Shown here: piece after piece, positions 11,002 to 22,028 of the stretch | Position numbering within the stretch: position 1 is the stretch's first letter | Layout: each line of letters starts with the position of its first letter | IMG/VR virus record: IMGVR_UViG_3300032330_001642 | Coordinates: 1 to 63,740 of that record | Source: a virus | Taxonomy: Duplodnaviria > Caudoviricetes | Strand: one strand, 5' to 3' | DNA length: 63,740 nucleotides | Notes under the pieces: generated by a model | The model's input: the letters and a program-made list of their open reading frames with translations, nothing else | What the model was told of the DNA's origin: nothing | The model's database searches: none | Made by a program: the position numbers and the translations under genes

Positions 11002-11010
11002 ATATTGATA

Positions 11011-11120: not shown

Positions 11121-11122
11121 TG

Positions 11123-11194
11123 TGGTCCCGGGGAATCACGATATCCCAACCTTTTCGTTATGAGCGAACTGCTCCACCTTTGAGCTACGAGACC
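11123..11194 (-). tRNA. tRNA-CAT (Ile2 or Met), atypical T-loop
   Basis: GGTCTCG/CGGGACC acceptor; TTCG-CTCATAA-CGAA anticodon arm; T-loop ATCGTGA. Confidence 0.8.
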
Positions 11195-11233
11195 AATTAT
11201 GGGTTTTTAGTGTACCCATAAACACTTGAATAA

Positions 11234-11464
11234 CTATTGGTGGTGTTTGATATACCTACCAAATTTATCAACCCTCACAGAGAGTTTCTCCAATCTAAAG
11301 TTCCATTGTTTGAACTTTCCTAAGCCCGATTTCATTCGTGCTTGTTTAATCGCAGATTCTTCTGCCTTCTCACGTCCGTCTTCCGTAGTTTCTACGAAAA
11401 ACGTGGGAGCCTGAACACCGTATCTCACGGGAACTACTCTCCAAATTCTCAATTTCTGAGTCAT
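11234..11464 (-). CDS. small basic protein behind a TAG-uORF/hairpin switch
   Basis: 76-aa ORF whose start abuts a hairpin containing the uORF stop. Confidence 0.7.
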   Translation of the reverse strand: MTQKLRIWRVVPVRYGVQAPTFFVETTEDGREKAEESAIKQARMKSGLGKFKQWNFRLEKLSVRVDKFGRYIKHHQ

Positions 11465-11484
11465 AATACTTGAATAATCAAGTA

Positions 11485-11514
11485 CTACGTGGAGTTTGGT
11501 TGTTGGTTTTTCAT
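11485..11514 (-). promoter_or_regulatory. uORF MKNQQPNST-TAG with its stop in a 10-bp hairpin
   Basis: TAGTACTTGA-TTAT-TCAAGTATTA ends on the A of the downstream ATG. Confidence 0.65.
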
Positions 11515-11648
11515 ATTAGTAATATAATCAATTAAATATAAATATCAAACATATGGAGGTCTATCTCCTCAACATTTTCATTGGTACTGTTTTATGTGTG
11601 CCTCACGTGATTACTAATGTCACTGTCGCTTTAATGTTTGAAATTTTG

Positions 11649-11728
11649 TATCCCCGGTGGGAGTCGAACCCACACGCCGAAGCAACAAGTTTTAAGCCTG
11701 TCGTGTATACCAGTTTCACCACGGGGAT
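11649..11728 (-). tRNA. tRNA-Leu(TAA)
   Basis: cloverleaf; loop CTTAAAA; long variable arm. Confidence 0.92.
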
Positions 11729-11948
11729 GTGTTTCCCCCAATGAGATTAGTTTGGGGTAGATATTCTCGGTTTTTCCTATTGAAATACCCTACGCGTCTT
11801 ACCGCTTAAAAAGTCAACCATTACTAGGAGGTGAGTTGGTAGTCTCCCTATTAACCCTAAGACCCCCTCTGTAAAACCGTTTGAGGCGTCAGCTACATCT
11901 TTGTTTAAGAAACGATGCCAAATCTGTTGAGTATCTCTCACTCAATTG

Positions 11949-12041
11949 TAGTCAGGACAGGACTCGAACCTGTAAGTACAGTTATACAGAACTGTGCATC
12001 CCTGTATGGATATTGCGTCTAACCAATTCCGCCACCCGACT
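11949..12041 (-). ncRNA. tRNA-Leu-like scaffold with non-canonical anticodon arm
   Basis: AGTCGGG-TGGCGGAATTGGTTAGACGC...ACAGG-TTCGAGT-CCTGT-CCTGACT; loop ATACAG is not a 7-nt anticodon loop. Confidence 0.7.
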
Positions 12042-12267
12042 ATATAGGACACGGGTTCGGTTTCCCCATATGTGTCCATACTTTTAGTAGTTGTGTTATT
12101 TTAAGAGAAATAACCCGGTACCCACCGAAGAACCCGTATTTTTTGTTCCGCACAAAAATTTGTAAAAAGGCCGTATTGTCGTTTAGTCTATTTCAACCGT
12201 CCGAGTTCTACATTTTACATCCAAGAACCCATACCCTCATACGAAGAGAACGAAAGTGGATGACCTG

Positions 12268-12344
12268 ATGGTAAGGTGGGATTCGAACCCACATCCTTTC
12301 GGCCAACTAAGACCGAACGCTTTCACCATTTGAGCTTCTTACCA
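12268..12344 (-). ncRNA. tRNA-like RNA with enlarged anticodon loop
   Basis: TGGTAAG/CTTACCA acceptor, canonical T arm, TTCGG-TCTTAGTTGG-CCGAA (10-nt loop). Confidence 0.7.
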
Positions 12345-12574
12345 AACATTTTGGAAAAACTGATGGTTACGTTTACCATCTTTGACTTGAGTTTGTCTTT
12401 ATCATTTTTCCGTTTTTTTTGAGAGATTTCCTCTTGAAGTAATGTCAATCTCGTCCTAAACCACACCATCCTTTCTTTTAAGGCTAAGAAACTTCTAACT
12501 ACCTATTTGTCCCCACTGATTTTTCTTAACCACAAAAAACAGACTCACAAACTGAACTCACAAAAAACGACTCG

Positions 12575-12691
12575 TGGATAGAGTAGGATTCGAACCTACA
12601 ATAGTACCATACTTTTTCACCTGCCGGTTACTTCAAGGACTCGAACCTCATATTCCGATGCCTCGGACGCTTTACCATTTACCACCTACCC
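12575..12691 (-). ncRNA. tRNA-like RNA with a second, nested T arm
   Basis: GGGTAGG/TCTATCC acceptor; internal GAGG-TTCGAGT-CCTT plus terminal GTAGG-TTCGAAT-CCTAC; no anticodon loop. Confidence 0.6.
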
Positions 12692-12697
12692 ATTTTG

Positions 12698-12769
12698 AGC
12701 TTCCACGAGGAATCGAACCCCGTTATCTTGTGTACAAAACAAGCACATCACCATTTATGTTTTGGAAGC
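12698..12769 (-). tRNA. tRNA-Thr(TGT)
   Basis: cloverleaf; CTTGT-TTTGTAC-ACAAG. Confidence 0.88.
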
Positions 12770-12995
12770 CTGTCGCAGAGTATTTTTTTAAAGTAGAAGT
12801 CAACTCTGTCTCTTAAACTACTTATTGGTACTGGCACGGTTTCGGCCGAAACTCGGATTTGTACTTCATCCACAGGAATACCTGTCGCCAATTTCTTTAA
12901 CATCATCACTTCGGCCACATTGGGAGAACCGCAGTTCCCACGTTGTTTAAGGAGGTAGTTGGCGGTGTATCACACCGAGTTATGATAATGTATTG

Positions 12996-13069
12996 TACCC
13001 CAGGAGGGACTTGAACCCTCAAAAAACAATTTCTAAGACTGCCGTGTCTACCTATTCCACCACCGGGGC
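12996..13069 (-). tRNA. tRNA-Leu(TAG) lacking a long variable arm
   Basis: class II-type D arm; loop CTTAGAA; variable region is only a short T run. Confidence 0.8.
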
Positions 13070-13183
13070 TTTTTGGTGGGGCTCGACCCCACCTGTTTGA
13101 ATTACTTGCGATATGCTCTCACCCTTTTTCACCCAACTAGTATTTAGTGTGTGAGACCAAACTACCCTCATTCAACCCTTTTG

Positions 13184-13256
13184 TACCCCCAACTGGATTT
13201 GAACCAATATCGGACATCTTAGAAGGATGTGGCATTTCCATTTATGCTATGGAGGC
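13184..13256 (-). tRNA. tRNA-Arg(TCT)
   Basis: ACATC-CTTCTAA-GATGT. Confidence 0.9.
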
Positions 13257-13433
13257 AATTAAAATACTGCTGTGGAGCATCACCACAATCCACTACAAGG
13301 TTTTCCCCACTTTGGGCTGGCCGACCCAGGTTATGCCCTTATACCTTAACCTACGATTCTCTGCAGTTACGTAGCTCACTCAGGTGTGTGATAACAGGTG
13401 CTTATTTCATACCTATTTACGTCGTATTTTTTG

Positions 13434-13506
13434 AGACGATAGTCGGATTCGAACCGACATTATTCCACATTGGAAGTGTGGTGCCATACCTTTAGGCGAT
13501 ACCGTC
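13434..13506 (-). tRNA. tRNA-Gly(TCC), atypical acceptor stem
   Basis: CCACA-CTTCCAA-TGTGG; acceptor GACGGTA/TATCGTC. Confidence 0.8.
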
Positions 13507-14176
13507 ATTTTTTCTTTATAACTCGACCTAATCTCCATCCTTTAGGGATTAAATCACCTTTATAAATTTTTTTATTATCTGAACCATTAGTAATCCAACA
13601 AGTTCCGTATTGGGAATTTTTATTACCTTTTTGTTTTATTGAATTTTTCTTACCAATATTTTTTTTAGATTCTTCTTTATGTTTTTTACCTTTGAATGTT
13701 GAATGATTAAAACCGATTTCTTTTAATCGTTTCTTTATTTTTTCACTGTTTTCTTTTTGGTCATTTTCACTTAAAGAATTTTGATAATTTTTTGATATTA
13801 TTTTTCTAAAATCTTTACCGTATTTTTTTTCTAATATCTCATCAGTTATTCTTCTACCTTTTTTAACGGCTTTTAGATTAACAAAACCCCCTTGACCACC
13901 TTCTTTGAGATTCATACATAATTTATCTGTTAATAAAATTTTATTAACAATTTCACTCTCTCTAATTATCAGTTTTTCTCTTGTTGGTAAAAATTCTAAA
14001 ATTTCTTTTATATGATTTTCTTTCCCATACTTTCTAATAGAATATCTCAATCTTTTACCACTCCCTAAATAACCATCCTCTAAATTAGAGGTACTGTGCA
14101 TACCTATGTAATATCTTTTAGTTATATTACAAATTGTCTTGTAAATATAATGTATGTGAGGTTTTTTTCTTCCCAT
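13505..14176 (-). mobile_element. free-standing GIY-YIG homing endonuclease (Seg-like) with NUMOD3-like motif
   Basis: YIYKTICNITKRYYIGMH..YLGSG; FKGKKHKEESKKNIG; sits between two tRNA-Gly genes. Confidence 0.88.
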
Positions 14177-14233
14177 TTTGTCCTTTTATTATAAATATCT
14201 TAACCCATAGTAAAAGTACAAAAAAGTTCTCGG

Positions 14234-14305
14234 AGCGAGTAGAGAGAATCAAACTCTCGTCCTTAGGTTGGAAGCCTAATATAATAATCACTATACGATA
14301 CTCGC
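14234..14305 (-). tRNA. tRNA-Gly(TCC)
   Basis: GCGAGTA acceptor; TTAGG-CTTCCAA-CCTAA. Confidence 0.9.
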
Positions 14306-14391
14306 AGTTAAGATGAACTTCGGACTTGTGTACCGAATGAGACCCTTTAATTAAATCACTAACCCCGGGTGCGGTCTATTCATCTATTTTT

Positions 14392-14565
14392 TTATAACTT
14401 AGATTGGAGAATCCCCATCTCTTTTTCGATTCTTTTCTTATCAGAATCTGTTAATGGAACTTTTACGTCCCTTGTACCTTTTTGTGTTTTCACACCACTT
14501 TTCAGTTGGTGTTCTAACATAGACAATACTCTTGATTGTCTTGACCTTTGTTGAACTGTCGCCAT
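14392..14565 (-). CDS. small basic hypothetical protein (57 aa)
   Basis: MATVQQRSRQSRVLSMLEHQLKSG...; below ORF-track cutoff. Confidence 0.6.
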   Translation of the reverse strand: MATVQQRSRQSRVLSMLEHQLKSGVKTQKGTRDVKVPLTDSDKKRIEKEMGILQSKL

Positions 14566-14591
14566 ACGTTGGTTTTTAGATTAATAATTAG

Positions 14592-14664
14592 TAGCGGGAG
14601 GAGGACTCGAACCTCCGACCTTATGGTTATGAGCCACACGAGCTGCCAACTGCTCTATCCCACG
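14592..14664 (-). tRNA. tRNA-Met(CAT), initiator-like
   Basis: C1:T72 mismatch and fMet-like D arm; only two G-C pairs at the base of the anticodon stem. Confidence 0.85.
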
Positions 14665-14678
14665 ATGTTTATTCTTAG

Positions 14679-14748
14679 TAGCGTAGCGTGGACTCGAACC
14701 ACCCCCCAAGCTTATGAGACTTAGATGCAACCTTTACACTTTAACGCA
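14679..14748 (-). tRNA. degenerate tRNA-Met(CAT)
   Basis: loop CTCATAA and T arm present; weak acceptor pairing. Confidence 0.55.
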
Positions 14749-14758
14749 ATTTATTGTT

Positions 14759-14882
14759 TGTAATTAACATAGGCGGAACTCAAATCCTCTTACTCTTGTT
14801 TCCACGTTACCATATCATAAATTACCGAAGGATTATCCGTAACTTATTAGGCTCTCCCGCTAAGGACATTATGTTAATTACA
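14759..14882 (-). ncRNA. candidate structured RNA closed by a 13-bp stem
   Basis: TGTAATTAACATA/TATGTTAATTACA terminal inverted repeat. Confidence 0.5.
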
Positions 14883-14886
14883 TTTT

Positions 14887-14994
14887 GCTGATTAGTAAGG
14901 ATTTGAACCTTAATCCTCCTTCCCTTGTTGCCGTACATAATCTAGGGACTCGAACCCTAGCGGGGGATGGTGTGCACCATTACACTATAATCAA
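14887..14994 (-). ncRNA. tRNA-like RNA with a T-arm hairpin in place of the anticodon arm
   Basis: TTGATTA/TAATCAG acceptor, GTGT/ACAC D stem, internal CTAGGG-TTCGAGT-CCCTAG, terminal TAAGG-TTCAAAT-CCTTA. Confidence 0.6.
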
Positions 14995-15043
14995 TCGATG
15001 GTTTCGAACCCATCAGTCATAGGTTAATTACTCCTATGGTTTG

Positions 15044-15115
15044 CGGTCTATGAGAGAATCGAACTCTCATCTCTACCGTGACAGGGTAGCATCCTAGCCG
15101 TTGAACGAATAGACC
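15044..15115 (-). tRNA. tRNA-Asp(GTC)
   Basis: CTACC-CTGTCAC-GGTAG. Confidence 0.92.
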
Positions 15116-15244
15116 AAAATTACCTTTACATTTCAAAGGTTAATCAGGTTTAGTTGTGAACTTTCCTTTCAGTCGTTGTCTCATTTTTTTACGGGTCTTG
15201 TTATACGACAATTTCAACACATTGACCATACGTGTTGACAATCG

Positions 15245-15315
15245 TGGACACAGTGGGAATCGAACCCAAAACAATCTGATTGCAAATCAGTTGGACTGCC
15301 GTTGTCATCTGGCCC
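15245..15315 (-). tRNA. tRNA-Ala(TGC), irregular
   Basis: loop TTTGCAA; G3:U70 present; bulged acceptor. Confidence 0.7.
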
Positions 15316-15320
15316 ATACG

Positions 15321-15499
15321 ACACTTTATCAGATAGTGAGAAACTGGCTTTGTGTATTAAGGGAACACGATATGCTTAAAACCTCTTGTAGCCCCACCGG
15401 GAGTCGAACCCGACTTTTATGGATGAAAACCATATGTCCTAACCGATAGACGATAGGGCCAAATAACACTTTATCAGATAGTGAGAAACTGGCCTTGTG
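15321..15499. repeat. 28-bp identical repeat (15321-15348, 15466-15493) downstream of each tRNA-Glu
   Basis: ACACTTTATCAGATAGTGAGAAACTGGC occurs twice. Confidence 0.9.
15389..15460 (-). tRNA. tRNA-Glu(TTC)
   Basis: TATGG-TTTTCAT-CCATA. Confidence 0.92.
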
Positions 15500-15531
15500 C
15501 AATTAATGGGACACGTGGCTCATAACCATTG

Positions 15532-15603
15532 TAGCCCGTACGGGTTTCGAACCCGTGCCTCCTGATAGAAAGTCAGACGTGTTTACCTCTTCACTAACGG
15601 GCC
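15532..15603 (-). tRNA. tRNA-Glu(TTC)
   Basis: TCTGA-CTTTCTA-TCAGG. Confidence 0.88.
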
Positions 15604-15611
15604 ATTTTGTA

Positions 15612-15660
15612 TTACCAATATTTCAAATAACTTGTTTCTTTTTGATGGTACAAAGATAAT
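15612..15660 (-). promoter_or_regulatory. Bacteroidota-type promoter (TATCTTTG) plus boxA-like leader of tRNA operon A
   Basis: TAnnTTTG at 15651-15658; 25-mer AACAAGTTATTTGAAATATTGGTAA identical to 21672-21696. Confidence 0.7.
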
Positions 15661-15699
15661 ACTTTATTTCATTATACCAAACTTTTTTTAATCTTTTTT

Positions 15700-15852
15700 T
15701 TATCCTTCTCTATCTTCGATAGAAAACCCTGCACTATCGTATTCAGGTCCTTGGTCTTCTTCCGGAGTGACATTTACCAATCCGTATGTTACACCTAATA
15801 TGGGCGAATATTCCATCCCTAACTCTTCATTCATCGTTTTTTTGTCCGACAT
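15700..15852 (-). CDS. small acidic hypothetical protein (50 aa)
   Basis: MSDKKTMNEELGMEYSP...; TATCTTTG upstream. Confidence 0.5.
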   Translation of the reverse strand: MSDKKTMNEELGMEYSPILGVTYGLVNVTPEEDQGPEYDSAGFSIEDREG

Positions 15853-15915
15853 AATAATTACATTTTTAATTCGATACAAAGATAATACTTTTTTTTAATT
15901 CTCCAAATATAATGT

Positions 15916-15945
15916 AAAAAAAAATCCATCTCTTTTGGAGATGGA
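15916..15945 (-). terminator. attenuator terminator of leader A
   Basis: TCCATCTC-CAAAA-GAGATGGA followed by T9. Confidence 0.85.
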
Positions 15946-15980
15946 CCTTATCAGTTATTATTATGTTACTTAACAATACA

Positions 15981-16055
15981 TCATACCATCTCCGACCGAG
16001 TTGTATCTCTACCCTCCGCTCCTGTTAATAATAGTATTGTATTTAATGTTTGCAT
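15981..16055 (-). promoter_or_regulatory. leader peptide A (MQTLNTILLLTGAEGRDTTRSEMV)
   Basis: 24-aa ORF before the terminator; GGAGATGG is complementary to the terminator 5' arm; codons match operon A tRNAs. Confidence 0.8.
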
Positions 16056-16134
16056 TTTCTGTGTTATTGTAATTTTCTAATAAATATATACCTTTTTATA
16101 AAAGTGTCAAGTATTGGTAAAAAAAATTATAAAA

Positions 16135-16345
16135 AAAGTTTAACAACCCCGCCCTCGGGTCGTAGCGGGCAACTTGAGAATTACTTCTCGTGGGAATTCC
16201 GGAATTGGTTGTGTTCCTCACCGGCGTACCAGTCCTTATCTATCCTTTACCGTATTTATACGGTGCTACTGTTGGGAGGTCACCCCTATCAACACAACTA
16301 GTCCATTAGTTTTTAAGAGTATGGACACCCCGGTTGTTAAACTTT
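16135..16345 (-). ncRNA. candidate ~210-nt structured RNA
   Basis: 14-bp closing stem AAAGTTTAACAACC/GGTTGTTAAACTTT, GC-rich internal hairpins, no convincing ORF. Confidence 0.55.
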
Positions 16346-16353
16346 TTATTTTG

Positions 16354-16500
16354 TAAAAACAGACAGAATGATTTTCCGATATTTATCTTAGGGGCATCCT
16401 AGCAGTCACTCTACTTACCCTCGGCGGTCTCTTGGTTTGATTGACAATTCCAAACCTCACATCCATATTACCACTGATGTAAGTTATAGGTCTGTTTTTA
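16354..16500 (-). ncRNA. candidate structured RNA
   Basis: 11-bp closing stem TAAAAACAGAC/GTCTGTTTTTA. Confidence 0.45.
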
Positions 16501-16568
16501 TTTCTTCAGGAGAGACCCCCAAGGGATAACCATAACGGAATTACCCTTGACTCACTCTCCGTCTTCTG

Positions 16569-16637
16569 CACGCCATCAAAGAATCGAACTCTGTCCTATG
16601 GGTTTGGAATCCATTTGGCTACCTTAGCCTATGACGT
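16569..16637 (-). tRNA. tRNA-Trp(CCA)
   Basis: ATGGA-TTCCAAA-CCCAT; short D arm. Confidence 0.75.
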
Positions 16638-16645
16638 ATTTGTTG

Positions 16646-16715
16646 AGGTCTCGGTGAGAATCGAACTCACTCCGCTGATTTTGCAGACCAGCCGGCCGCC
16701 ACGACCATCAAGACC
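16646..16715 (-). tRNA. tRNA-Cys(GCA)
   Basis: loop CTGCAAA; U73. Confidence 0.85.
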
Positions 16716-16784
16716 ATTTAACCTACGACCCAAGGAACAGGAATTGTGTCCATAACATTCAATAAGCACTGTAGGTTTTCTATT

Positions 16785-17384
16785 TTAATCTAAACTACTT
16801 GGTAAATAAAGTAGTGTTGGATTTTTCTTTTGGATATCAACATCCGGGTAAAGTTTCTTAAACTCCAATACGTTGAACTTTCCGGTGATTATATGAAAAC
16901 CATTTTTTGTTGGAATCACTTTTTCAACTTTATTACCTACCGGTTGTATGTCATCTAAATCATTTAAGATTTTAATTAAAAACTTTTGGTCTGTAGTATC
17001 AACATCAACAATCCATCTTTTTTCCTGTGTTTTGATTTGACCCACAACCGAATCAAATAAACCCTTTTGGTTTTTTACACCATTTTTAATTCTCTCAGCT
17101 AACGACATCATCATTTCTAATGAAACATCCATATGGTTTTGTTTCTGAACGTGGATGTAAGCTCTTGCCTTGAACATCTCACATAATTGTTTGATTTCAT
17201 CGTATCTCTTATCAAGATGTTCTATACTATCAATACAATATGTTTTGATTGTTCTAACCGATTGGTGATTATCTCTCTCACCTTCAGGTTGGTCTTTCTT
17301 TCTCTTGAAAACGTATAACATATAGAAATCGTTTTTGTCCGAGAAATTCAGTAATTCTTTGATTTCTTTTATATTATCTATCAT
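16785..17384 (-). CDS. hypothetical protein, possible AEP primase-like fold
   Basis: WIVDVD and PTKNGFH motifs. Confidence 0.5.
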   Translation of the reverse strand: MIDNIKEIKELLNFSDKNDFYMLYVFKRKKDQPEGERDNHQSVRTIKTYCIDSIEHLDKRYDEIKQLCEMFKARAYIHVQKQNHMDVSLEMMMSLAERIKNGVKNQKGLFDSVVGQIKTQEKRWIVDVDTTDQKFLIKILNDLDDIQPVGNKVEKVIPTKNGFHIITGKFNVLEFKKLYPDVDIQKKNPTLLYLPSSLD

Positions 17385-17385
17385 C

Positions 17386-17628
17386 TTAATATCCTATTTC
17401 ATCTTTAATCTTCCACTGTTCTTCCGGGGTCAATCTTTCAATTCTCTCAACCGGAACAAATCCATCTAATCTTTGTTCTTTAACATCTTCAAAATGTTCT
17501 ATGGTATCCAAACGATACCCGAACTTATATCGGATGTATTGAAACTTCTCTCCGTCCCAATAAGCCATATAATTGTTTCTACAGAAACCCTTATACCACC
17601 CTTCTTTCATTTCATTTTTTGGTATCAT
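17386..17628 (-). CDS. hypothetical protein
   Basis: 80-aa ORF in an operon-like run. Confidence 0.65.
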   Translation of the reverse strand: MIPKNEMKEGWYKGFCRNNYMAYWDGEKFQYIRYKFGYRLDTIEHFEDVKEQRLDGFVPVERIERLTPEEQWKIKDEIGY

Positions 17629-17643
17629 TATTTCTAATATTTT

Positions 17644-18486
17644 TTAATTTTCAGTTTCTAATCGTTTAATAACATCTTTAATATTGATATATGATGTTAA
17701 AATTGTTGGTAACCCAAGAAGAGAGTTACAAAAATCAAACATATATCTGTACGTTGAGAATACACTTCCCACACTCACTTTATTGTACATTACGTAGTAT
17801 GTTAATAATGCCGTCACACTTCCGTATACAATCGCTTGAATCCAAATTGAGAACTTAGAATCTATCACTGATAACTTAATTGATAATTGTTGTCCTCTTC
17901 TTAATAAGTTATTAACTGATGATATTTTTCTAGTATTAATAATTTGAGTTTGTTCTTCAGATAAATCGTTATTCAAACTTGTAACCGCTGCTATCCTTGG
18001 TGAGTAATAAAAACTAACACCCAAGATTAAAACCGAGGTAATCATTAAGAATCCAACTATCGGTAAACTTACCATCGCCAAGAAGTAAATTGCTCCAACC
18101 AAACCAATTATTGTTTGTAATACAACCAACATATCTCTCTCAAAAAAATGAACGATATAATTCATTAAGGTCAATCTTCCGTTAATCTTTGTTGTCTCAA
18201 CACCGTTCTCAATTTGTTTGTGAGTTTCAATTGATGCAAATCGTCTATAAATCCCGGAGAATACTCTAACATCGTAAATTCTACTGATGTACCCGAAAAA
18301 CATAATGGCAACAAATGTTGAAACCAAATACCAAATGTACGAATAGTCTTTTGCTATCAAGTGGTCAATCGCATTACCCAAAACCTTTGGATAAATAACC
18401 ATCAAAATCGCATTCACCATAAACAACGAATATGAAAATACAATAGATTTCCAATTCTCCTTAAACATTACTTTTAACTTATTCAT
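17644..18486 (-). CDS. ABC transporter transmembrane-domain-like protein (no ATPase)
   Basis: about 6 TM helices; YPKVLGNAID, RIYDVRVFSGIY, SVGSVFS patterns. Confidence 0.7.
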   Translation of the reverse strand: MNKLKVMFKENWKSIVFSYSLFMVNAILMVIYPKVLGNAIDHLIAKDYSYIWYLVSTFVAIMFFGYISRIYDVRVFSGIYRRFASIETHKQIENGVETTKINGRLTLMNYIVHFFERDMLVVLQTIIGLVGAIYFLAMVSLPIVGFLMITSVLILGVSFYYSPRIAAVTSLNNDLSEEQTQIINTRKISSVNNLLRRGQQLSIKLSVIDSKFSIWIQAIVYGSVTALLTYYVMYNKVSVGSVFSTYRYMFDFCNSLLGLPTILTSYINIKDVIKRLETEN

Positions 18487-18542
18487 ATCTTTCCGTTTTA
18501 ATTTTGACAAAGATACAACTAAATTTTAATCTGCCAAATTTT

Positions 18543-19049
18543 TTAGAATAATAAATATGGTTCCCATTCTTCCGGGATGTAATGAACCTGTCTCATCAAC
18601 ATTAAATAATGTGGTCGTCTTGGTTGAGGGATTTCTTTTCCATACTCCTCTAACGTTAAATTTGACTTCTCACTATTACATTTTCTACAAGCGGTTACCA
18701 AGTTGTCCCACGCGTCTTTACCACCCTTAGATTGGGGTATTACGTGGTCTAATGTCAAAGTTTTACGATTGTCACACCCACAATAAACACAGGTATAACC
18801 ATCTCTTCTATAAACATTCTCTCTGTTCAAAGGAACTTTATGAATCGGTTGATTCACATATTTGTAAACCCTAATAATTGAAGGTTTTTTGATATCCAAT
18901 TCAGGATTGATTAACTTGAATGATTCCGGATGTTCGGCAATAACACTTGCATTACCTTTATAAGAAATTACAAAAGCCCTCTCAGTGTTTATGATAGACC
19001 TTGGCATAAAACTTGAATCCAAAACCAATGTTTTTCCGTACTTACTCAC
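18543..19049 (-). CDS. HNH endonuclease (McrA-like)
   Basis: RDGYTCVYCG, LTLDHVIP, WDNLVTACRKCN. Confidence 0.9.
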   Translation of the reverse strand: MSKYGKTLVLDSSFMPRSIINTERAFVISYKGNASVIAEHPESFKLINPELDIKKPSIIRVYKYVNQPIHKVPLNRENVYRRDGYTCVYCGCDNRKTLTLDHVIPQSKGGKDAWDNLVTACRKCNSEKSNLTLEEYGKEIPQPRRPHYLMLMRQVHYIPEEWEPYLLF

Positions 19050-19085
19050 GACTTTTGATTTTTAATTAAACATTCTTTTTATTTG

Positions 19086-19157
19086 TTCCCCCGCCGAGAG
19101 TCGAACTCGGCCCCATAGATTAAAAGTCTATTGCCTACACCAGTTTGCTACGAGGGA
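19086..19157 (-). tRNA. tRNA-Lys(TTT)
   Basis: ATAGA-CTTTTAA-TCTAT. Confidence 0.88.
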
Positions 19158-19240
19158 TTATTGAGCTCATTATACCTTAACATTGGGCTCAAAATCTCAC
19201 TTATTTGAGCTTAATAATTATGGTTTGTGAGCCACATTTG

Positions 19241-19312
19241 TCGTTACGGATGGATTCGAACCATCGACCACTGAAGTATCAGTTCAGCACTCTACCACTG
19301 AGTTACGTAACG
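19241..19312 (-). tRNA. tRNA-Ile(GAT)
   Basis: CTGAA-CTGATAC-TTCAG. Confidence 0.9.
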
Positions 19313-19318
19313 AAATTG

Positions 19319-19395
19319 TCGGGATAGCAGGATTCGAACCTGCGAGTTCTCCTGCTCCCAAAGCAGGCGGGGTAACCGGACTCCCCAATATCCCG
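19319..19395 (-). tRNA. tRNA-Pro(TGG)
   Basis: CCTGC-TTTGGGA-GCAGG. Confidence 0.9.
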
Positions 19396-19401
19396 AGTAA
19401 T

Positions 19402-19461
19402 TAACTACCATTTGACTCTTTTCGAACTTTGGAGGCTCGTATCATTCCTTAATGGTAGTTA
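19402..19461 (-). ncRNA. repeated small structured element, copy 1
   Basis: closing stem around core GAATGATACGAG...TCGAAARGAGTCA, shared with 20756-20813. Confidence 0.55.
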
Positions 19462-19466
19462 TTTTG

Positions 19467-19539
19467 TCTAAATGGCTGGACTCGAACCAGCGGTCTCTAC
19501 GGTCCAAGTGTAGCGGATTACCAACTTTCCCACATCTAG
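19467..19539 (-). tRNA. tRNA-Pro(TGG)
   Basis: CTACA-CTTGGAC-CGTAG. Confidence 0.85.
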
Positions 19540-19546
19540 AATTTAA

Positions 19547-19726
19547 TTATATTTTTAATTTTCCTGAACGATAATCTTCCACCATTTGTTTCAGTCTCTC
19601 GTCTCTTTTTTCCATCATCTTTCTGATTTTCTCAGTTCTTTCAGGACTTGGGTTAGAATCAATTGTATAAACCACCCCCATTTTATCTAATTCATTTAAG
19701 AATTCTTTTGTTTCAAATTTTTTCAT
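19547..19726 (-). CDS. small hypothetical protein
   Basis: ORF between tRNAs; start MKKFETKE. Confidence 0.6.
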   Translation of the reverse strand: MKKFETKEFLNELDKMGVVYTIDSNPSPERTEKIRKMMEKRDERLKQMVEDYRSGKLKI

Positions 19727-19740
19727 AACTTTATGTTTTG

Positions 19741-19827
19741 CGGAGAACAAGGGAATCGAACCCTCACCGGTTTTACCCGGAACATCTTAGCAGGATGCCA
19801 CTACGAACCAATATTAGACTATTCTCC
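19741..19827 (-). tRNA. tRNA-Ser(GCT)
   Basis: loop CTGCTAA; long variable arm; G73. Confidence 0.9.
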
Positions 19828-19834
19828 ATTTTTG

Positions 19835-19921
19835 CGCAGATGGTAGGAGTCGAACCCACTCGGAAACTTGCGTTTCATACATAAGATTTGGAGTCTTACC
19901 GGCTACCTCAGCCTCACCTGC
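19835..19921 (-). tRNA. tRNA-Trp(CCA) with a long variable arm
   Basis: TAAGA-CTCCAAA-TCTTA; variable hairpin GAAAC-GCAA-GTTTC. Confidence 0.75.
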
Positions 19922-20000
19922 ATAAATTAATAGGATATCGCTTAACCTATCCGTGACTTGGCCCTGTCACTTAACTCGTGTTACCGAGACGATTTTTTTG

Positions 20001-20072
20001 TGTCCCCAAGAGGATTCGAACCCCTATCTTCAAGTCCGTAGCCTGACGTTCTGTCCGTTGAACTATGGAGAC
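20001..20072 (-). tRNA. tRNA-Arg(ACG)
   Basis: TCAGG-CTACGGA-CTTGA. Confidence 0.9.
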
Positions 20073-20176
20073 AATTTGAGGTTGAGAACTCCTCTGTGTT
20101 AGTCTTTACTAGTTGTTGCAACAACCTTGTAGCCACTCTATTTTCCTTTCTCAAGGGAACAACACATTTTAATTTA

Positions 20177-20270
20177 AGTATTCACACAAGGTGTTAGTTT
20201 TATGGGAGTTCTACTGCAGATGTGCCCAAAAGTGACTTACCTAACACGGACTCCATTCCCCGTGAATACT
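20177..20270 (-). ncRNA. candidate structured RNA
   Basis: AGTATTCAC/GTGAATACT closing stem and inner GTGTTAG/CTAACAC stem. Confidence 0.45.
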
Positions 20271-20457
20271 ATTTCCACTGAGTTTTTCGGTTATACTTCC
20301 AAGTTTTATAACTTCTGTATTTAATTGACGAATGTCCTTTCTTGAAATTTAATCCCTCATCCCAATAGGGTGGAAATTCTTCTTTTAACCAAATTACTCT
20401 GTACTCTTTTGAACAAGTTGCCTTGTCCAACTTTTTTCTGTTTGTGTTTACACTCAT
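20269..20457 (-). CDS. small basic protein behind a TGA-uORF/hairpin switch
   Basis: 62-aa K/R/W-rich ORF with its start directly after a hairpin. Confidence 0.7.
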   Translation of the reverse strand: MSVNTNRKKLDKATCSKEYRVIWLKEEFPPYWDEGLNFKKGHSSIKYRSYKTWKYNRKTQWK

Positions 20458-20485
20458 AATCTCTGAGTCTGTTGTTTAGCAGACC

Positions 20486-20512
20486 TCAAAGATTGTCAAA
20501 TACCTTTTTCAT
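20486..20512 (-). promoter_or_regulatory. uORF MKKVFDNL-TGA with its stop in a hairpin
   Basis: AATCTTTGAGGTCTG-CTAAACAA-CAGACTCAGAGATT immediately followed by ATG. Confidence 0.65.
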
Positions 20513-20528
20513 AATATTTTTTTATTTG

Positions 20529-20601
20529 GGTGACTAAGGAGAATCGAACTCCCACCTTCAGAACCACAATCTAACATACTAACCGTTATACTATAGCCAC
20601 C
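20529..20601 (-). tRNA. tRNA-His(GTG)
   Basis: loop TTGTGGT; G-1:C73. Confidence 0.9.
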
Positions 20602-20677
20602 ATATATACCCCCTTCACCGGCTTAACGGACCGGCTGCCATATGGGAGTGGGGGTTTCCCGTTATTTCGGGACTCCG

Positions 20678-20749
20678 CGGACTTGGGGAATTTTGAAATC
20701 CCGACCTCGATGTTAACAGCATCTTGCTCTTCCTCTGAGCTACAAGTCC
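20678..20749 (-). tRNA. tRNA-Asn(GTT)
   Basis: GATG-CTGTTAA-CATC; T-loop TTCAAAA. Confidence 0.85.
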
Positions 20750-20755
20750 AATTTT

Positions 20756-20813
20756 GACTACTACCTGACTCCTTTCGAGCTTATGAAACTCGTATCATTC
20801 AATCTTAGTAGTC
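20756..20813 (-). ncRNA. repeated small structured element, copy 2
   Basis: GACTACTA/TAGTAGTC stem around the same core as 19402-19461. Confidence 0.55.
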
Positions 20814-20897
20814 CAAGGCTGTAGGAGCTCATCTTTACACTTAGGCTTTTTGTCTTCTCGATTCCGGAATCTTACGACCGTAGCGTCACCTTGTTTG

Positions 20898-20970
20898 TGG
20901 TTCCCCGGGGAATCGAACCCCATCCTTTAGATTTTCAGTCTAACGTACAGACCACTTATACCAGAGAACC
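20898..20970 (-). tRNA. tRNA-Phe(GAA)
   Basis: TTAGA-CTGAAAA-TCTAA. Confidence 0.9.
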
Positions 20971-20974
20971 AAAT

Positions 20975-21114
20975 AATGATAATGTTGAAGTACCCGTTTC
21001 GCTTCAATCTTGACTGCTTAATCATAGTTTTATGGTGCACCGGCAGAGGGTTATGAATTCTTGAACCTATCTTGGATTGTCGACATCCGAGAGATAGAGA
21101 AAACCATTATCATT
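20975..21114 (-). ncRNA. candidate structured RNA
   Basis: AATGATAATG/CATTATCATT closing stem with internal hairpins. Confidence 0.45.
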
Positions 21115-21116
21115 GG

Positions 21117-21197
21117 TGGAAAGTAGTGGACTCGAACCACTCCCGTAAGGACCTGATTTACAGTCAGGTTGCCGTATCCGAACGACTTTTACTTTCC
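21117..21197 (-). tRNA. tRNA-Tyr(GTA)
   Basis: CCTGA-CTGTAAA-TCAGG; variable arm; encoded CCA follows. Confidence 0.9.
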
Positions 21198-21202
21198 TTT
21201 TG

Positions 21203-21273
21203 TACCCCGAGATGGAATTGAACCACCACCATTTGTATGTAAGACAAATACGCTTCCATTACGCCATCGGGGC
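21203..21273 (-). tRNA. tRNA-Val(TAC)
   Basis: TTTGT-CTTACAT-ACAAA. Confidence 0.9.
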
Positions 21274-21279
21274 AAATTG

Positions 21280-21347
21280 TACCGAGAAATGGTAATGCTC
21301 CATTCTATAGTCGGATATGAGCCGTCTATGGTCCTTGACCTCTCGAT
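21280..21347 (-). tRNA. atypical tRNA-Met(CAT) with minimal D arm
   Basis: ATCGAGA/TCTCGGT acceptor; loop CTCATAT; D arm GGTC-AAG-GACC; T-loop AGCATTA. Confidence 0.6.
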
Positions 21348-21402
21348 GTTTTTGGTGGACATAGGCTCATCACCTACTCTTGGGTTTCCACCGAACCCTT
21401 CG

Positions 21403-21474
21403 TTACCCCTGAGAGAATCGAACTCCCACCGCGTGGACCAAAACCACGTGTACTAACCGTTATACGAAGGGGCA
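21403..21474 (-). tRNA. tRNA-Gln(TTG)
   Basis: CGTGG-TTTTGGT-CCACG; U1:A72. Confidence 0.9.
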
Positions 21475-21575
21475 ATAATATTTTAGTTAAAGAACGGTTA
21501 CCACAATTACGTTCGCCCCGGACACTACTCCGGACATTCTGTTTTGGGTGTGGATTAAACTATTTAACTAACCCG

Positions 21576-21663
21576 CGGAAGGAGTGGGACTCGAACCCAC
21601 ACGTGTGTTACCACCAACGGTTTTCAAGACCGCGACCCGTAGACCAACTTGGCTTACCCTTCC
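21576..21663 (-). tRNA. tRNA-Ser(TGA)
   Basis: GCGGT-CTTGAAA-ACCGT; long variable arm. Confidence 0.92.
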
Positions 21664-21671
21664 ATTTTTTC

Positions 21672-21722
21672 TTACCAATATTTCAAATAACTTGTTCCTT
21701 TATTTTGATGGGACAAAGGTAA
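21672..21722 (-). promoter_or_regulatory. Bacteroidota-type promoter (TACCTTTG) plus boxA-like leader of tRNA operon B
   Basis: TAnnTTTG at 21714-21721; 25-mer identical to 15612-15636. Confidence 0.7.
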
Positions 21723-21753
21723 TCCTTTTTTTTTAACTTTCAAACTTTTTTAC

Positions 21754-21789
21754 AAAAAAAAATCCTGAACTTTTTAGATTCAGGATTTT
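21754..21789 (-). terminator. attenuator terminator of leader B
   Basis: AAAATCCTGAA-TCTAAAAAG-TTCAGGATTTT followed by a T tract. Confidence 0.85.
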
Positions 21790-21811
21790 GGTATATGGTT
21801 ATGTTAACTTC

Positions 21812-21934
21812 TTATATAGTTGTCAAGTCATCCAATAAAACATCTGAATCTGTATGCGAGGTACGCGGATACGAACAATTACTAAATTGTTGTTTCCAAA
21901 TCACGACGTTCATATGTTTATTAGTGTTTCTCAT
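21812..21934 (-). promoter_or_regulatory. leader peptide B (MRNTNKHMNVVIWKQQFSNCSYPRTSHTDSDVLLDDLTTI)
   Basis: 40-aa ORF before the terminator; AGATTCAG is complementary to terminator CTGAATCT; codons match operon B tRNAs. Confidence 0.8.
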
Positions 21935-22028
21935 TTTTTCTAAATTTTGTGGTATCTCTACCTGTTGTTTCTTATAATTATATCAAACTTACGAAAAGTT
22001 TAATAAAAGTCAAATATTTTTTTTTATT

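What the first reader, a model, noticed from the sequence alone, without database searches (positions are those of the whole stretch)
11123..21934. Codon-inventory attenuators: leader peptides that list the tRNAs of the operon they precede
Seen: the tRNA region splits into two operons with almost non-overlapping content. Operon A has Glu, Ala, Asp, Met, Gly, Arg-TCT, Leu-TAG, Thr, Leu-TAA and CAT/Ile2. Operon B has Ser-TGA, Gln, Met, Val, Tyr, Phe, Asn, His, Arg-ACG, Trp, Ser-GCT, Pro, Ile-GAT, Lys and Cys. Each is preceded by a short ORF, an intrinsic terminator and an 8-nt antiterminator match inside the ORF. Each leader core contains a cognate codon for every tRNA type in its own operon and largely avoids the other set, even at isoacceptor level (ATA/AGA in A; ATT/CGT in B). 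Known: trp/his-type attenuation uses ribosome stalling on leader codons, and host anticodon nucleases deplete tRNAs during infection. Inference: stalling on any missing tRNA frees the antiterminator and switches on the replacement tRNA set, acting as a multiplexed tRNA-shortage sensor and counter-defence. I do not know of this being described. Caveat: TAnnTTTG promoters lie downstream of both terminators, so attenuation would control only transcripts starting upstream.
Basis: partly seen in the sequence, partly recalled or inferred. Interest (0 to 1): 0.97.

Follow-up and report, generated by a model that had tools for sequence, protein, structure and literature searches.

The report
Codon-list leaders gating phage tRNA operons
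Two short reading frames in this phage each contain a codon for nearly every tRNA gene that follows them and sit in front of a transcription terminator, which looks like a built-in gauge that makes replacement tRNAs when translation runs short of them; this layout has not been described before.

Summary
Each tRNA operon on the minus strand is preceded by a promoter, a short ORF (LB 21934-21812, LA 16055-15981), an ORF-internal antiterminator and an intrinsic terminator. In a six-frame scan of the window, LB is the only place where 20 codons cover all 14 codon classes of operon B. LA is the only place where 12 codons cover 9 of 10 classes of operon A. Both leaders are conserved in about 50 related viral contigs, and LA keeps its codon list while the codon order is shuffled. 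The leader-operon pairing survives an array rearrangement. A different family, the cultured Cellulophaga phages Calle_1 and phi38:1, has three such units with a different tRNA partition. There the leaders match their own units (0 of 200,000 random partitions do as well), and the terminator abuts the first tRNA with no promoter between. Alternative folds and two compensatory base-pair changes support antitermination. The best reading is ribosome-mediated attenuation that senses supply of the tRNAs the operon encodes. Translation, readthrough and any counter-defence role are untested. In this window, extra promoters lie downstream of both terminators. Seven literature searches found no prior description.

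The parts
21984..22014 (-). P1(B): Bacteroidota-type promoter (TTTG-N19-TAAGTTTG) driving leader B
   Evidence: Pattern match; conserved in L005 and L006.
21951..21962 (-). Small hairpin GGUA-GAGA-UACC in the 5' UTR of leader B; the same hairpin core lies inside the leader A ORF
   Evidence: conserved in relatives.
21812..21934 (-). Leader B ORF, 40 codons plus stop (MRNTNKHMNVVIWKQQFSNCSYPRTSHTDSDVLLDDLTTI)
   Evidence: There are 19 unique nucleotide variants among 28 sequences, all open for 36-41 codons.
21863..21928 (-). Codon-list core of leader B (codons 3-24). It covers all 14 codon classes of the operon B tRNAs; the only non-B codons are ACT and ATG.
   Evidence: Unique in the six-frame scan; replacements in relatives stay inside set B.
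21874..21891 (-). 7-bp hairpin inside the core (AACAAUU-UAGU-AAUUGUU); candidate pause hairpin
   Evidence: Its conservation was not tested independently, because the search pattern overlaps it.
21844..21851 (-). Antiterminator strand of leader B (AGAUUCAG, codons 28-31)
   Evidence: Pairs with 21783-21776 in the nascent-RNA MFE of 21 of 21 unique variants; two compensatory pair changes.
21754..21789 (-). Intrinsic terminator of leader B (12-pair stem, T9 run)
21714..21744 (-). P2(B): second promoter, between terminator and tRNA-Ser
   Evidence: A relaxed match is present in 15 of 19 unique relatives' gaps; absent in L123, L129, L124, L133.
21672..21687 (-). Conserved motif TTTGAAATATTGGTAA directly 5' of the first tRNA (also at 15612-15627)
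   Evidence: function unknown.
16568..21663 (-). tRNA operon B (Ser-TGA ... Lys, four inserted protein genes including an HNH endonuclease, then Cys and Trp)
16081..16110 (-). P1(A): TTGACA-N-TATATTTA promoter driving leader A
   Evidence: conserved in 6 of 6 aligned sequences.
15981..16055 (-). Leader A ORF, 24 codons plus stop (MQTLNTILLLTGAEGRDTTRSEMV)
   Evidence: There are 13 unique nucleotide variants in 32 sequences; all have 24 codons and all hold 10 of 10 A classes.
15999..16040 (-). Codon-list core of leader A (codons 6-19): 14 of 14 codons belong to operon A classes
16003..16013 (-). Hairpin GGUA-GAGA-UAC inside leader A, just 5' of the antiterminator; candidate pause hairpin
15986..15993 (-). 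Antiterminator strand of leader A (GGAGAUGG, codons 21-24, ending 2 nt before the stop codon)
   Evidence: Pairs with 15944-15937 in the nascent-RNA MFE of 21 of 22 unique variants.
15916..15949 (-). Intrinsic terminator of leader A (12-pair stem, T9 run)
15651..15907 (-). Variable insert between the leader A terminator and tRNA-Glu: promoter 15907-15877, 50-aa ORF 15852-15700 (no Pfam hit), second promoter 15681-15651
   Evidence: The insert is absent from a relative's contig, which joins 15917 to 15688, and from L035, whose gap is 87 nt.
11122..15603 (-). tRNA operon A (Glu x2, Ala-like, Asp, Met, Gly x2, Arg-TCT, Leu-TAG, Thr, two odd tRNAs, Leu-TAA, CAT)

Best explanation
Each tRNA operon is fronted by a ribosome-mediated transcription attenuator. 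The leader ORF is a list of the codons read by the tRNAs encoded behind it.

Shown by sequence: a host-type promoter starts a short transcript. It carries a 24- or 40-codon ORF, a small internal hairpin, a segment at or near the ORF end that can pair with the 5' arm of a downstream terminator, and the terminator itself.

Inferred: if the ribosome reads the leader quickly, it covers or has just unwound the antiterminator segment while RNA polymerase makes the terminator. The terminator then forms and the transcript ends. If any one of the listed tRNAs is scarce, the ribosome stalls inside the codon list. The antiterminator strand then stays free, pairs with the terminator arm as it emerges, and polymerase reads on into the tRNA genes. 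The operon is therefore made on demand and shuts itself off once its products restore decoding.

In this window's lineage, a second promoter after each terminator adds an unregulated input. In Callevirus and in operon B of the L123/L129 lineage, the attenuated route is the only visible one.

The likely physiological trigger is loss of host tRNAs during infection, through tRNA-cleaving defences or host shut-off. That last step is inference only.
For: 1. Uniqueness. LB and LA are the single best loci in the whole window for covering their own operon's codon classes, and each lies just upstream on the right strand.

2. Permutation tests on whole ORFs, with no core picking. Window: 42 of 62 own-operon codons and 24 of 24 classes, reached by 256 and 37 of 200,000 random partitions. 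Calle_1: 53 of 80 codons and 24 of 24 classes, reached by 0 of 200,000 for both. With only default-ARAGORN or GenBank tRNAs for Calle_1: 43 of 80 codons and 19 of 19 classes, reached by 0 and 7 of 200,000.

3. The list is conserved, not the peptide. The 13 unique LA variants all keep 10 of 10 classes. Codons 6-13 are permuted (TILLLTGA / TLLLTIGA / ILLTIAGT / ISLTIAAT). The only foreign codon in codons 6-19 is TCA, in 2 variants. LB core replacements V>S, K>N, K>S, T>S and T>I stay in or move into set B.

4. The pairing survives rearrangement. In L123/L129 the A-type tRNAs come first and the B tRNAs are in a different order, yet LB still precedes the B set. A strongly diverged 24-codon LA with the same antiterminator/terminator pair precedes the A set.

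5. Leu covariation. That lineage's A operon has no Leu tRNA. The Leu tRNAs lie elsewhere behind an HNH gene with their own promoter. Its LA has 0 TTR codons and 1 CTN codon, against 4 TTR codons and 1 CTN codon in the window's LA.

6. An independent family. Cellulophaga phages Calle_1 and phi38:1 have three units of promoter, ORF, terminator and tRNAs. G1: codons 2-17 are 15 of 16 cognate and cover 10 of 10 classes. G2: 16 of 16 consecutive codons, 7 of 7 classes. G3: 13 of 13 consecutive codons, 7 of 7 classes.

7. The leaders pointed to tRNAs missing from GenBank. Glu is found by default ARAGORN. Cys is found by Rfam at 36 bits and by relaxed ARAGORN. Tyr and Ile-TAT are found by relaxed ARAGORN.

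8. RNA switch. With the terminator 3' arm withheld, the MFE pairs the 5' arm with the ORF segment in 21 of 21 LB variants, 21 of 22 LA variants, and Calle G1 and G3. Between the two LB types (4 and 17 of 21 unique contexts), two adjacent pairs of the antiterminator helix change on both sides (U-A>C-G, C-G>U-A) while the terminator 3' arm stays the same.

9. No promoter motif lies between terminator and first tRNA in Callevirus or in L123/L129 operon B, where the gap is 40 nt. Those tRNAs can be made only by reading through the terminator.

10. RNA-library contigs from 4 of 4 metatranscriptome runs lie on leader B. Two of them bridge its terminator: 21629-21956 and 21694-21891.

11. Negative controls. 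crAss001 and T5 show no such upstream lists, so the statistic does not fire trivially.
Against: In this window both operons have consensus promoters downstream of the terminator. In relatives, all 20 unique LA gaps have at least one, and 15 of 19 unique LB gaps have a relaxed match. Attenuation can therefore only modulate part of the transcription.

LA is further separated from tRNA-Glu by an extra promoter and a 50-aa ORF.

The LA antiterminator shrinks to 5-6 contiguous pairs in lineages whose arm reads CCATCTTC, and 1 of 22 variants (L036) does not form it in the MFE.

The LB stop codon lies 30 nt beyond the antiterminator, so a ribosome parked at the stop would not cover it. The model then needs kinetic coupling.

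Calle G2 shows no antiterminator in the MFE.

Most tRNAs are represented by one or two codons, unlike the tandem runs of classical attenuators, so sensitivity to mild shortage would be low.

The lists are not perfect:
- The LB ATG has no Met tRNA in this window's operon B.
- Some relatives carry an extra Pro-TGG, Gln-TTG, Ser-CGA or Arg-TCG in operon A with no matching codon in the LA core.
- The LA of L123 keeps CTA, ATC, CAT and CCA without those tRNAs in its operon.

Several Callevirus tRNAs rest on relaxed ARAGORN or on my reading of anticodon loops (Ala-like, Leu-TAG).

There is no direct evidence that the ORFs are translated or that termination is conditional. The RNA evidence is assembled contigs only, which cannot show ends, strand or a single transcript, and DNA carry-over is not excluded.
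Confidence: 0.7

Rival explanations
1. In this window's lineage the leader-terminator modules are largely decoupled relics. The tRNAs are made from the strong promoters just upstream of the first tRNA (P2). The short upstream transcripts end at their terminators with little effect on tRNA output.
For: Consensus promoters lie between terminator and first tRNA in the window and in most relatives. P2 plus about 60 nt of leader is nearly identical before both operons. LA is separated from tRNA-Glu by a further promoter and ORF.
Against: A relic would decay. Instead, all 13 LA variants and all 19 LB variants keep start codon, frame, full codon list and terminator, while other positions and the codon order change. 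The antiterminator of LB co-evolves with the terminator arm. RNA-library contigs bridge the terminator. Related units without any P2 exist.
Confidence: 0.12
2. The modules are translation-coupled switches with a different signal or the opposite sign. They might report general translation capacity or amino-acid starvation, or translation of the leader might promote rather than prevent readthrough.
For: Charged-tRNA shortage from starvation would stall ribosomes just as tRNA loss would. One codon per tRNA is a weak sensor for a single species but a fair gauge of overall decoding. The LB stop lies 30 nt past the antiterminator.
Against: A general gauge would not need lists that differ between operons and follow each operon's own tRNAs down to isoacceptor level: ATA/AGA against ATT/CGT, and both Ser boxes. 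The stop codons lie 22-31 nt upstream of the terminator stems, too far for a terminating ribosome to block hairpin formation directly.
Confidence: 0.1
3. The short ORFs are independent small-protein or small-RNA genes with their own terminators, unrelated to tRNA control. The codon match is a by-product of composition or chance.
For: Each has its own promoter and terminator. The phi38:1 G1 and G3 leaders fall inside annotated hypothetical proteins gp066 and gp070. The conserved hairpins suggest RNA-level constraint.
Against: Chance is excluded. Peptide order is not conserved while codon-class content is. The same logic recurs with different sequences and a different partition in another phage family. 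In Callevirus the terminator abuts the first tRNA.
Confidence: 0.05

Closest known systems
Leader-peptide (ribosome-mediated) transcription attenuators of amino-acid operons (trp, his, leu, thr, ilv, pheA in enterobacteria)
   Same: A short leader ORF carries 'regulatory' codons. It is followed by mutually exclusive antiterminator and terminator hairpins, with the antiterminator strand at the ORF end, an internal hairpin that could act as a pause signal, and a T-run terminator. The general principle is recalled from established knowledge; I saw the abstracts of PMC1183508 and PMC3082878 in search listings.
   Different: The regulated genes are tRNAs, not biosynthetic enzymes. The leader carries one or two codons for each of 7-15 different tRNAs instead of a run for one to three amino acids, and discriminates isoacceptors. 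It is phage-borne and in Bacteroidota-type hosts. No clear 1:2 'protector' pairing was found. No Rfam leader family matches at E <= 0.1.
pheST (pheM leader) attenuation of phenylalanyl-tRNA synthetase in E. coli
   Same: A leader-peptide attenuator controls a component of the translation apparatus that serves the very codons in the leader (recalled; not checked in a paper here).
   Different: It senses a single amino acid or tRNA, regulates a protein gene, and is chromosomal.
T-box riboswitches
   Same: Conditional terminator readthrough reports on the state of a specific tRNA and controls translation-related genes. I saw the abstract of PMC9177973 in a listing.
   Different: T-boxes bind uncharged tRNA directly through a specifier codon and the T-box sequence, without a ribosome, and sense one tRNA per element. 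No Rfam T-box hit was found in 10500-22500. Here the codons are contiguous, in frame and behind a start codon.
Phage-encoded tRNAs as escape from tRNA-targeting defences (anticodon nucleases, PARIS, retron effectors)
   Same: These supply the physiological rationale: phage tRNAs replace host tRNAs that are cleaved during infection. I saw the abstracts of PMC10264068, PMC11464382 and PMC11555353 in a listing.
   Different: The abstracts seen concern the tRNAs themselves. Nothing in the listings or abstracts I saw mentions leader ORFs or conditional termination controlling phage tRNA genes.

Membership tests
Leader-peptide transcription attenuator | Short ORF upstream of the regulated genes, enriched in codons tied to the regulated product | tested here: met
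Leader-peptide transcription attenuator | Intrinsic terminator (GC-containing hairpin plus U-run) between leader ORF and regulated genes | tested here: met
Leader-peptide transcription attenuator | Alternative antiterminator pairing that excludes the terminator, with evolutionary support | tested here: met
   Nascent-RNA MFE pairs the arm with the ORF segment in 21 of 21 LB and 21 of 22 LA variants and in Calle G1 and G3. There are two compensatory pairs in LB. The pairing is weak (5-6 bp) in some LA lineages and absent in Calle G2.
Leader-peptide transcription attenuator | A ribosome finishing the ORF masks the antiterminator (stop codon at or next to it) | tested here: inconclusive
   Met for LA, where the antiterminator ends 2 nt before the stop, and for Calle G1, where it spans codons 19-24 of 25. 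Not met for LB, where the stop is 30 nt downstream.
Leader-peptide transcription attenuator | Regulated genes depend on readthrough (no other promoter between terminator and genes) | tested here: inconclusive
   Not met in this window (P2 promoters). Met in L123/L129 operon B and in all three Callevirus units.
Leader-peptide transcription attenuator | Leader is translated and readthrough responds to decoding speed | not testable with these tools
   Only assembled RNA-library contigs were available.
Rfam amino-acid leader families and T-box (curated cis-regulatory RNA families) | Match to a curated covariance model | tested here: not met
   cmscan of 10500-22500 at E <= 0.1 gave only tRNA-clan hits and two chance plastid-UTR hits on tRNAs.
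Bacteroidota sigma-A type promoter (TTTG / TAnnTTTG) | -33 TTTG and -7 TAnnTTTG with a 19-21 nt spacer (consensus recalled) | tested here: met
   12 matches against 2.49 expected in the window, including P1(B), P2(B), P2(A) and the insert promoter. P1(A) has TATATTTA at -7.

The most novel reading that the evidence does not exclude
Phages of Bacteroidota carry a modular, multiplexed tRNA-supply sensor. Every tRNA transcription unit is gated by a leader whose codons enumerate that unit's tRNAs. Loss of any single host tRNA, for instance to an anticodon nuclease or to phage-induced host RNA decay, would then switch on exactly the unit that holds its replacement and switch it off again once decoding recovers. 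This would be an inducible counter-defence and the first known feedback control of tRNA genes by their own decoding activity. It is old enough to be shared by freshwater jumbo phages and marine Callevirus. As a by-product, leader lists predict which tRNAs, including unannotated or odd ones, a unit encodes.
Probability: 0.35. Interest if true: 0.95.

Novelty: new variant of a known kind. Interest (0 to 1): 0.9.

Why it matters
Why phages carry tRNA genes, and how those genes are controlled, has been debated for decades. Known control of bacterial tRNA genes acts at promoters. Known leader-peptide attenuators control amino-acid enzymes or one synthetase.

This sequence shows an architecture in which the product class (tRNAs) is sensed by the process it serves (decoding), for up to 15 species at once and with isoacceptor resolution.

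If it works as read, it gives a direct, testable link between tRNA-targeting immunity or host shut-off and phage tRNA expression. It also explains why tRNA arrays are split into units. It offers a natural design for multi-input translational sensors, and it provides an annotation aid: in Callevirus the leader lists pointed to tRNAs missing from the GenBank records.

Because the same design occurs in cultured Cellulophaga phages with published infection systems, the hypothesis can be tested at the bench now.

Tried and rejected
Chance was rejected.

Homology searches that gave nothing:
- blastn of 15600-22100 against the phage collection found only tRNA similarity and no close cultured relative.
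- tblastn of the 40-aa LB peptide against the phage collection found no match.
- A scan of viral contigs with the Callevirus promoter-plus-ATG pattern returned 20 loci. Only the two that are phi38:1 and Calle_1 themselves carry the units; the others are ordinary genes behind a generic promoter.
- The 15-mer scan returned 116 loci, most of them chance matches. Only those with a 24-codon ORF ending in MV were kept.

Generality:
- crAss001: none of 9 tRNA class sets has its best window upstream of its tRNAs.
- T5: I read 12 annotated small ORFs of the tRNA region by eye and none lists the downstream tRNAs. Only the Cys-rich T5.070 before tRNA-Cys stands out.
- So the design is not universal.

RNA evidence:
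- Only Logan contigs were available. No contig of the four runs lies on 21983-22200, upstream of P1(B). I give this no weight beyond noting it, because no DNA run was laid for comparison.
- Run labels (freshwater, lake, wastewater) are not used as habitat evidence.

Host:
- The LB 23-mer occurs on two 2.7-kb contigs of metagenome-assembled genomes, one labelled uncultured Bacteroidetes and one Candidatus Saccharibacteria. These are probably binned phage fragments and are only a weak hint.
- Promoter type and a T9SS sorting domain are the better pointers to a Bacteroidota host.

Other checks:
- Covariation of the CGG codon in LA with an Arg-TCG tRNA is inconsistent.
- An apparent loss of tRNAs in L034 was a detection problem: Glu, Ala and Asp reappear with Rfam or relaxed ARAGORN.
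- The 223-aa ORF 13505-14176 looked GIY-YIG-like by eye but has no Pfam hit.

Literature:
- Seven full-text searches listed nothing on leader-peptide or attenuator control of tRNA genes in phages.
- Of PMC5335546 I read only the passages found for tRNA, codon, terminator and attenuat. They do not mention phage tRNA leaders.
- All other papers were seen only as listing lines and abstract starts.
- Supplements were not consulted. Those of the phi38:1 RNA-seq study may hold coverage of this region.

Full report
**What is there.** The window is a 63.7-kb fragment of an uncultured virus, estimated 22% complete. Related contigs reach about 320 kb. ARAGORN finds 29 tRNA genes, all on the minus strand between 11122 and 21663. 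Rfam adds a weak tRNA at 15245-15314, whose anticodon loop I read as TGC (Ala), and an odd 117-nt hit at 12575-12691.

Bacteroidota-type promoters (TTTG-N18-20-TAnnTTTG) are enriched, with 12 found against 2.49 expected. One protein carries a T9SS sorting domain. Both point to a Bacteroidota host.

The array falls into two blocks.
- Block B (21663->16568): Ser-TGA, Gln, Val, Tyr, Phe, Asn, His, Arg-ACG, Trp, Ser-GCT, Pro x2, Ile-GAT, Lys, four inserted protein genes (one an HNH endonuclease), then Cys and Trp.
- Block A (15603->11122): Glu x2, Ala-like, Asp, Met, Gly x2, Arg-TCT, Leu-TAG, Thr, two odd tRNAs, Leu-TAA, CAT.

**The two leaders.** Upstream of block B lie, in order:
- a consensus promoter (22014-21984);
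- a 40-codon ORF (21934-21812);
- a 12-pair terminator with a T9 run (21789-21754);
- a second promoter (21744-21714);
- a conserved 16-nt motif, then tRNA-Ser.

Upstream of block A lie, in order:
- a promoter (16110-16081);
- a 24-codon ORF (16055-15981);
- a 12-pair terminator (15949-15916);
- an insert with its own promoter and a 50-aa ORF;
- a copy of the same second promoter and motif, then tRNA-Glu.

**Is the codon list real?** I grouped the 61 sense codons into 24 classes. These are the amino acids, with Ile, Arg, Ser and Leu split by the isoacceptors present. I then scanned every stop-free window in all six frames.

- Of 43,159 20-codon windows, 7 cover all 14 B classes, and all 7 are in leader B.
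- Of 61,957 12-codon windows, 2 cover 9 A classes with no B codon, and both are in leader A.
- Of 46,902 18-codon windows, 4 cover 10 of 10 A classes, and all 4 are in leader A.

So each leader is the single best match in the window to the operon it precedes. Isoacceptor choices also fit: ATA and AGA in leader A, and ATT, CGT, AGT and TCG in leader B. Re-partitioning the classes at random between the operons, using whole ORFs without choosing a core, reaches the observed own-operon count (42 of 62) in 256 of 200,000 trials. It reaches full coverage in 37 of 200,000 trials.

**Relatives.** Pattern scans of viral contigs gave 31 loci with leader A and 27 with leader B.

Leader A occurs in 13 nucleotide variants, each with 24 codons. 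Every variant holds all 10 A classes. Codons 6-13 are reshuffled between lineages, and the only foreign codon in positions 6-19 is TCA, in two variants. What is conserved is the list, not the peptide.

Leader B occurs in 19 variants of 36-41 codons. The core is conserved, though this is partly by ascertainment because I searched with a 23-mer from it. Outside that 23-mer, replacements stay in set B. The tail is variable.

In every locus that reaches far enough, leader B is followed by B-type tRNAs and leader A by A-type tRNAs.

In the divergent L123/L129 lineage the order of the blocks is inverted and the B tRNAs are completely re-ordered, yet leader B still precedes them. The A block is preceded by a strongly diverged 24-codon leader with the same antiterminator and terminator-arm sequences. 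That A block has no Leu tRNA. The two Leu tRNAs sit 5 kb away on the other strand behind an HNH gene with their own promoter and no leader. That lineage's leader A has lost all TTR codons. This is partial covariation within the family.

There are fine-scale exceptions. An extra Pro-TGG, Gln-TTG, Ser-CGA or Arg-TCG sits in block A of some relatives without a matching core codon.

**An independent family.** I then looked at the tRNA region of Cellulophaga phage Calle_1 (Pervagoviridae) with the same scan. For each of three tRNA sub-clusters, the best window in the 14-kb locus lies directly upstream on the same strand.

Each unit consists of a conserved promoter, an ORF of 25-29 codons, a strong terminator and then the tRNAs. 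phi38:1 has the same three units.

- G1 leader, codons 2-17: 15 of 16 are cognate to Ala-like, Lys, Ile-GAT, Gly, Met, Asp, Thr, Val, Arg-TCT and Ile-TAT.
- G2 leader: 16 consecutive codons use only Tyr, Asn, Phe, Ser (both boxes), Trp and Cys.
- G3 leader: 13 consecutive codons use only Leu (both boxes), His, Gln, Glu, Pro and Arg-CGN.

Several of these tRNAs are absent from the GenBank tables and were found after the leaders suggested them:
- Glu by default ARAGORN;
- Cys by Rfam at 36 bits and relaxed ARAGORN;
- Tyr and Ile-TAT by relaxed ARAGORN;
- Ala-like and Leu-TAG by my reading of the anticodon loops.

Because that is partly circular, I ran the permutation both ways. With all tRNAs, the result is 53 of 80 codons and 24 of 24 classes, with 0 of 200,000 random partitions as good. 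With only default or GenBank tRNAs, it is 43 of 80 codons and 19 of 19 classes, reached by 0 and 7 of 200,000.

The partition differs from the window's. Lys, Val and Ile-GAT travel with Asp, Gly and Thr; Glu and Leu travel with Pro, Gln and His. The leaders differ accordingly.

**RNA switch.** Full-length folds keep the terminators. With the terminator's 3' arm withheld, as in the nascent transcript, the minimum-energy fold pairs the 5' arm with the ORF-internal segment in 21 of 21 unique leader B contexts and 21 of 22 unique leader A contexts. It does the same in Calle G1 and G3 but not G2.

Between the two leader B types (4 and 17 of 21 contexts), two adjacent pairs of this helix change on both strands while the terminator's 3' arm is unchanged. 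This is probably one evolutionary event, but it is specific to the antiterminator.

In leader A and Calle G1 the antiterminator strand ends next to the stop codon, the classical geometry. In leader B it lies 30 nt before the stop, so coupling would have to be kinetic.

Small hairpins lie where a pause signal would be expected. One is a GGUA-GAGA-UAC hairpin in leader A and in the 5' UTR of leader B. The other is a 7-bp hairpin in the leader B core.

**Dependence on readthrough.** But in L123/L129 only 40 nt without a promoter motif separate the leader B terminator from tRNA-Pro. In Callevirus the T-run is followed within a few bases by the first tRNA in all three units. A strong, unconditional terminator in that position would make the tRNA genes silent. 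Conditional readthrough is therefore the simplest reading.

**Expression.** Only assembled contigs of four metatranscriptome runs could be laid. All four have a contig on leader B, and two contigs bridge its terminator (21629-21956 and 21694-21891). A 450-nt contig covers leader A and joins 15917 to 15688, so it comes from a relative without the 50-aa insert. Contigs cannot show ends, strand or single transcripts, and DNA carry-over is possible. This is weak support for transcription and nothing more.

**Controls and limits.** Bacteroides phage crAss001 and coliphage T5 show no such leaders. The statistic is therefore not trivially satisfied, and the design is not universal. Rfam has no matching cis-regulatory family.

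Seven literature searches listed nothing that describes leader-peptide control of tRNA genes. The phi38:1 transcriptome paper, of which I read only the matching passages, does not discuss it.

**Verdict.** The best explanation, at about 0.7, is a ribosome-mediated attenuator whose leader enumerates the operon's tRNAs, giving on-demand, self-limiting tRNA expression. The sequence features, their conservation and their covariation are shown. Translation, stalling-dependent readthrough and the trigger (host tRNA loss, possibly through anticodon nucleases) are inferred. It is a new variant of a known mechanism with an unprecedented target and multiplexed logic, and it is testable in cultured Cellulophaga phage systems.

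Noticed in passing
window 12267-12344 (-); also L006 1614-1691, and L037/L057/L078/L081: tRNA-like genes between Thr and Leu-TAA that ARAGORN reads with four-base anticodons (tagt; taat or gaaa in relatives), meaning an enlarged anticodon loop. They are conserved in position across relatives. They could be quadruplet-decoding or otherwise unusual tRNAs, or decaying copies.
   Followed up: partly
window 11948-12041 (-) and 12575-12691 (-): A 94-nt and a 117-nt tRNA-like sequence (Rfam 36 and 29.4 bits) with extra internal sequence, possibly intron-containing or fused/degenerate tRNAs. Some relatives have Arg-TCG at the first position.
   Followed up: no
window 21672-21687 and 15612-15627 (-); inverted copy 16105-16120: The 16-nt motif TTTGAAATATTGGTAA lies directly 5' of the first tRNA of both operons, and in L123 before tRNA-Pro and tRNA-Glu. 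An inverted, imperfect copy overlaps the -33 region of the leader A promoter. It could be an operator pair for a DNA-binding regulator or a processing signal.
   Followed up: partly
window 16003-16013 and 21951-21962 (-): The same small hairpin (GGUA-GAGA-UAC[C], GNRA-type loop) lies inside the leader A ORF and in the 5' UTR of leader B. This suggests the two leader regions share ancestry or a common RNA signal.
   Followed up: partly
window 15700-15852 (-): A 50-aa acidic ORF with its own promoter is inserted between the leader A terminator and tRNA-Glu. It has no Pfam hit and is absent from some relatives (L035; an RNA-library contig joins 15917 to 15688).
   Followed up: partly
window 16785-19049 (-): Four protein genes sit inside tRNA block B: an HNH endonuclease (18543-19049), a 288-aa protein with an ABC-transporter transmembrane domain (17644-18510), and two ORFs of 80 and 199 aa without clear family. 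A 223-aa ORF (13505-14176) interrupts block A between the two Gly tRNAs and has no Pfam hit.
   Followed up: partly
window 41287-43152 (-) and 54727-56616 (-): The phage encodes a full-length Hsp70/DnaK homologue (E = 1.5e-256) and a 629-aa protein with a type IX secretion C-terminal sorting domain.
   Followed up: no
L143 (Calle_1 MT732432.1) and L144 (phi38:1 NC_021796.1): GenBank tRNA tables of these phages miss several tRNAs: Glu next to Pro, Cys after Phe, Tyr before Ser-TGA, Ile-TAT after Arg-TCT, and an Ala-like gene after the G1 terminator. The feature table returned for Calle_1 is offset by about 53 nt from the locus sequence.
   Followed up: partly
L171 (T5 NC_005859.1) 14628-14756 (-): T5.070, a 42-aa ORF with six Cys that looks like a zinc ribbon, lies between promoter P14b and tRNA-Cys. 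This is probably coincidence and was not examined further.
   Followed up: no
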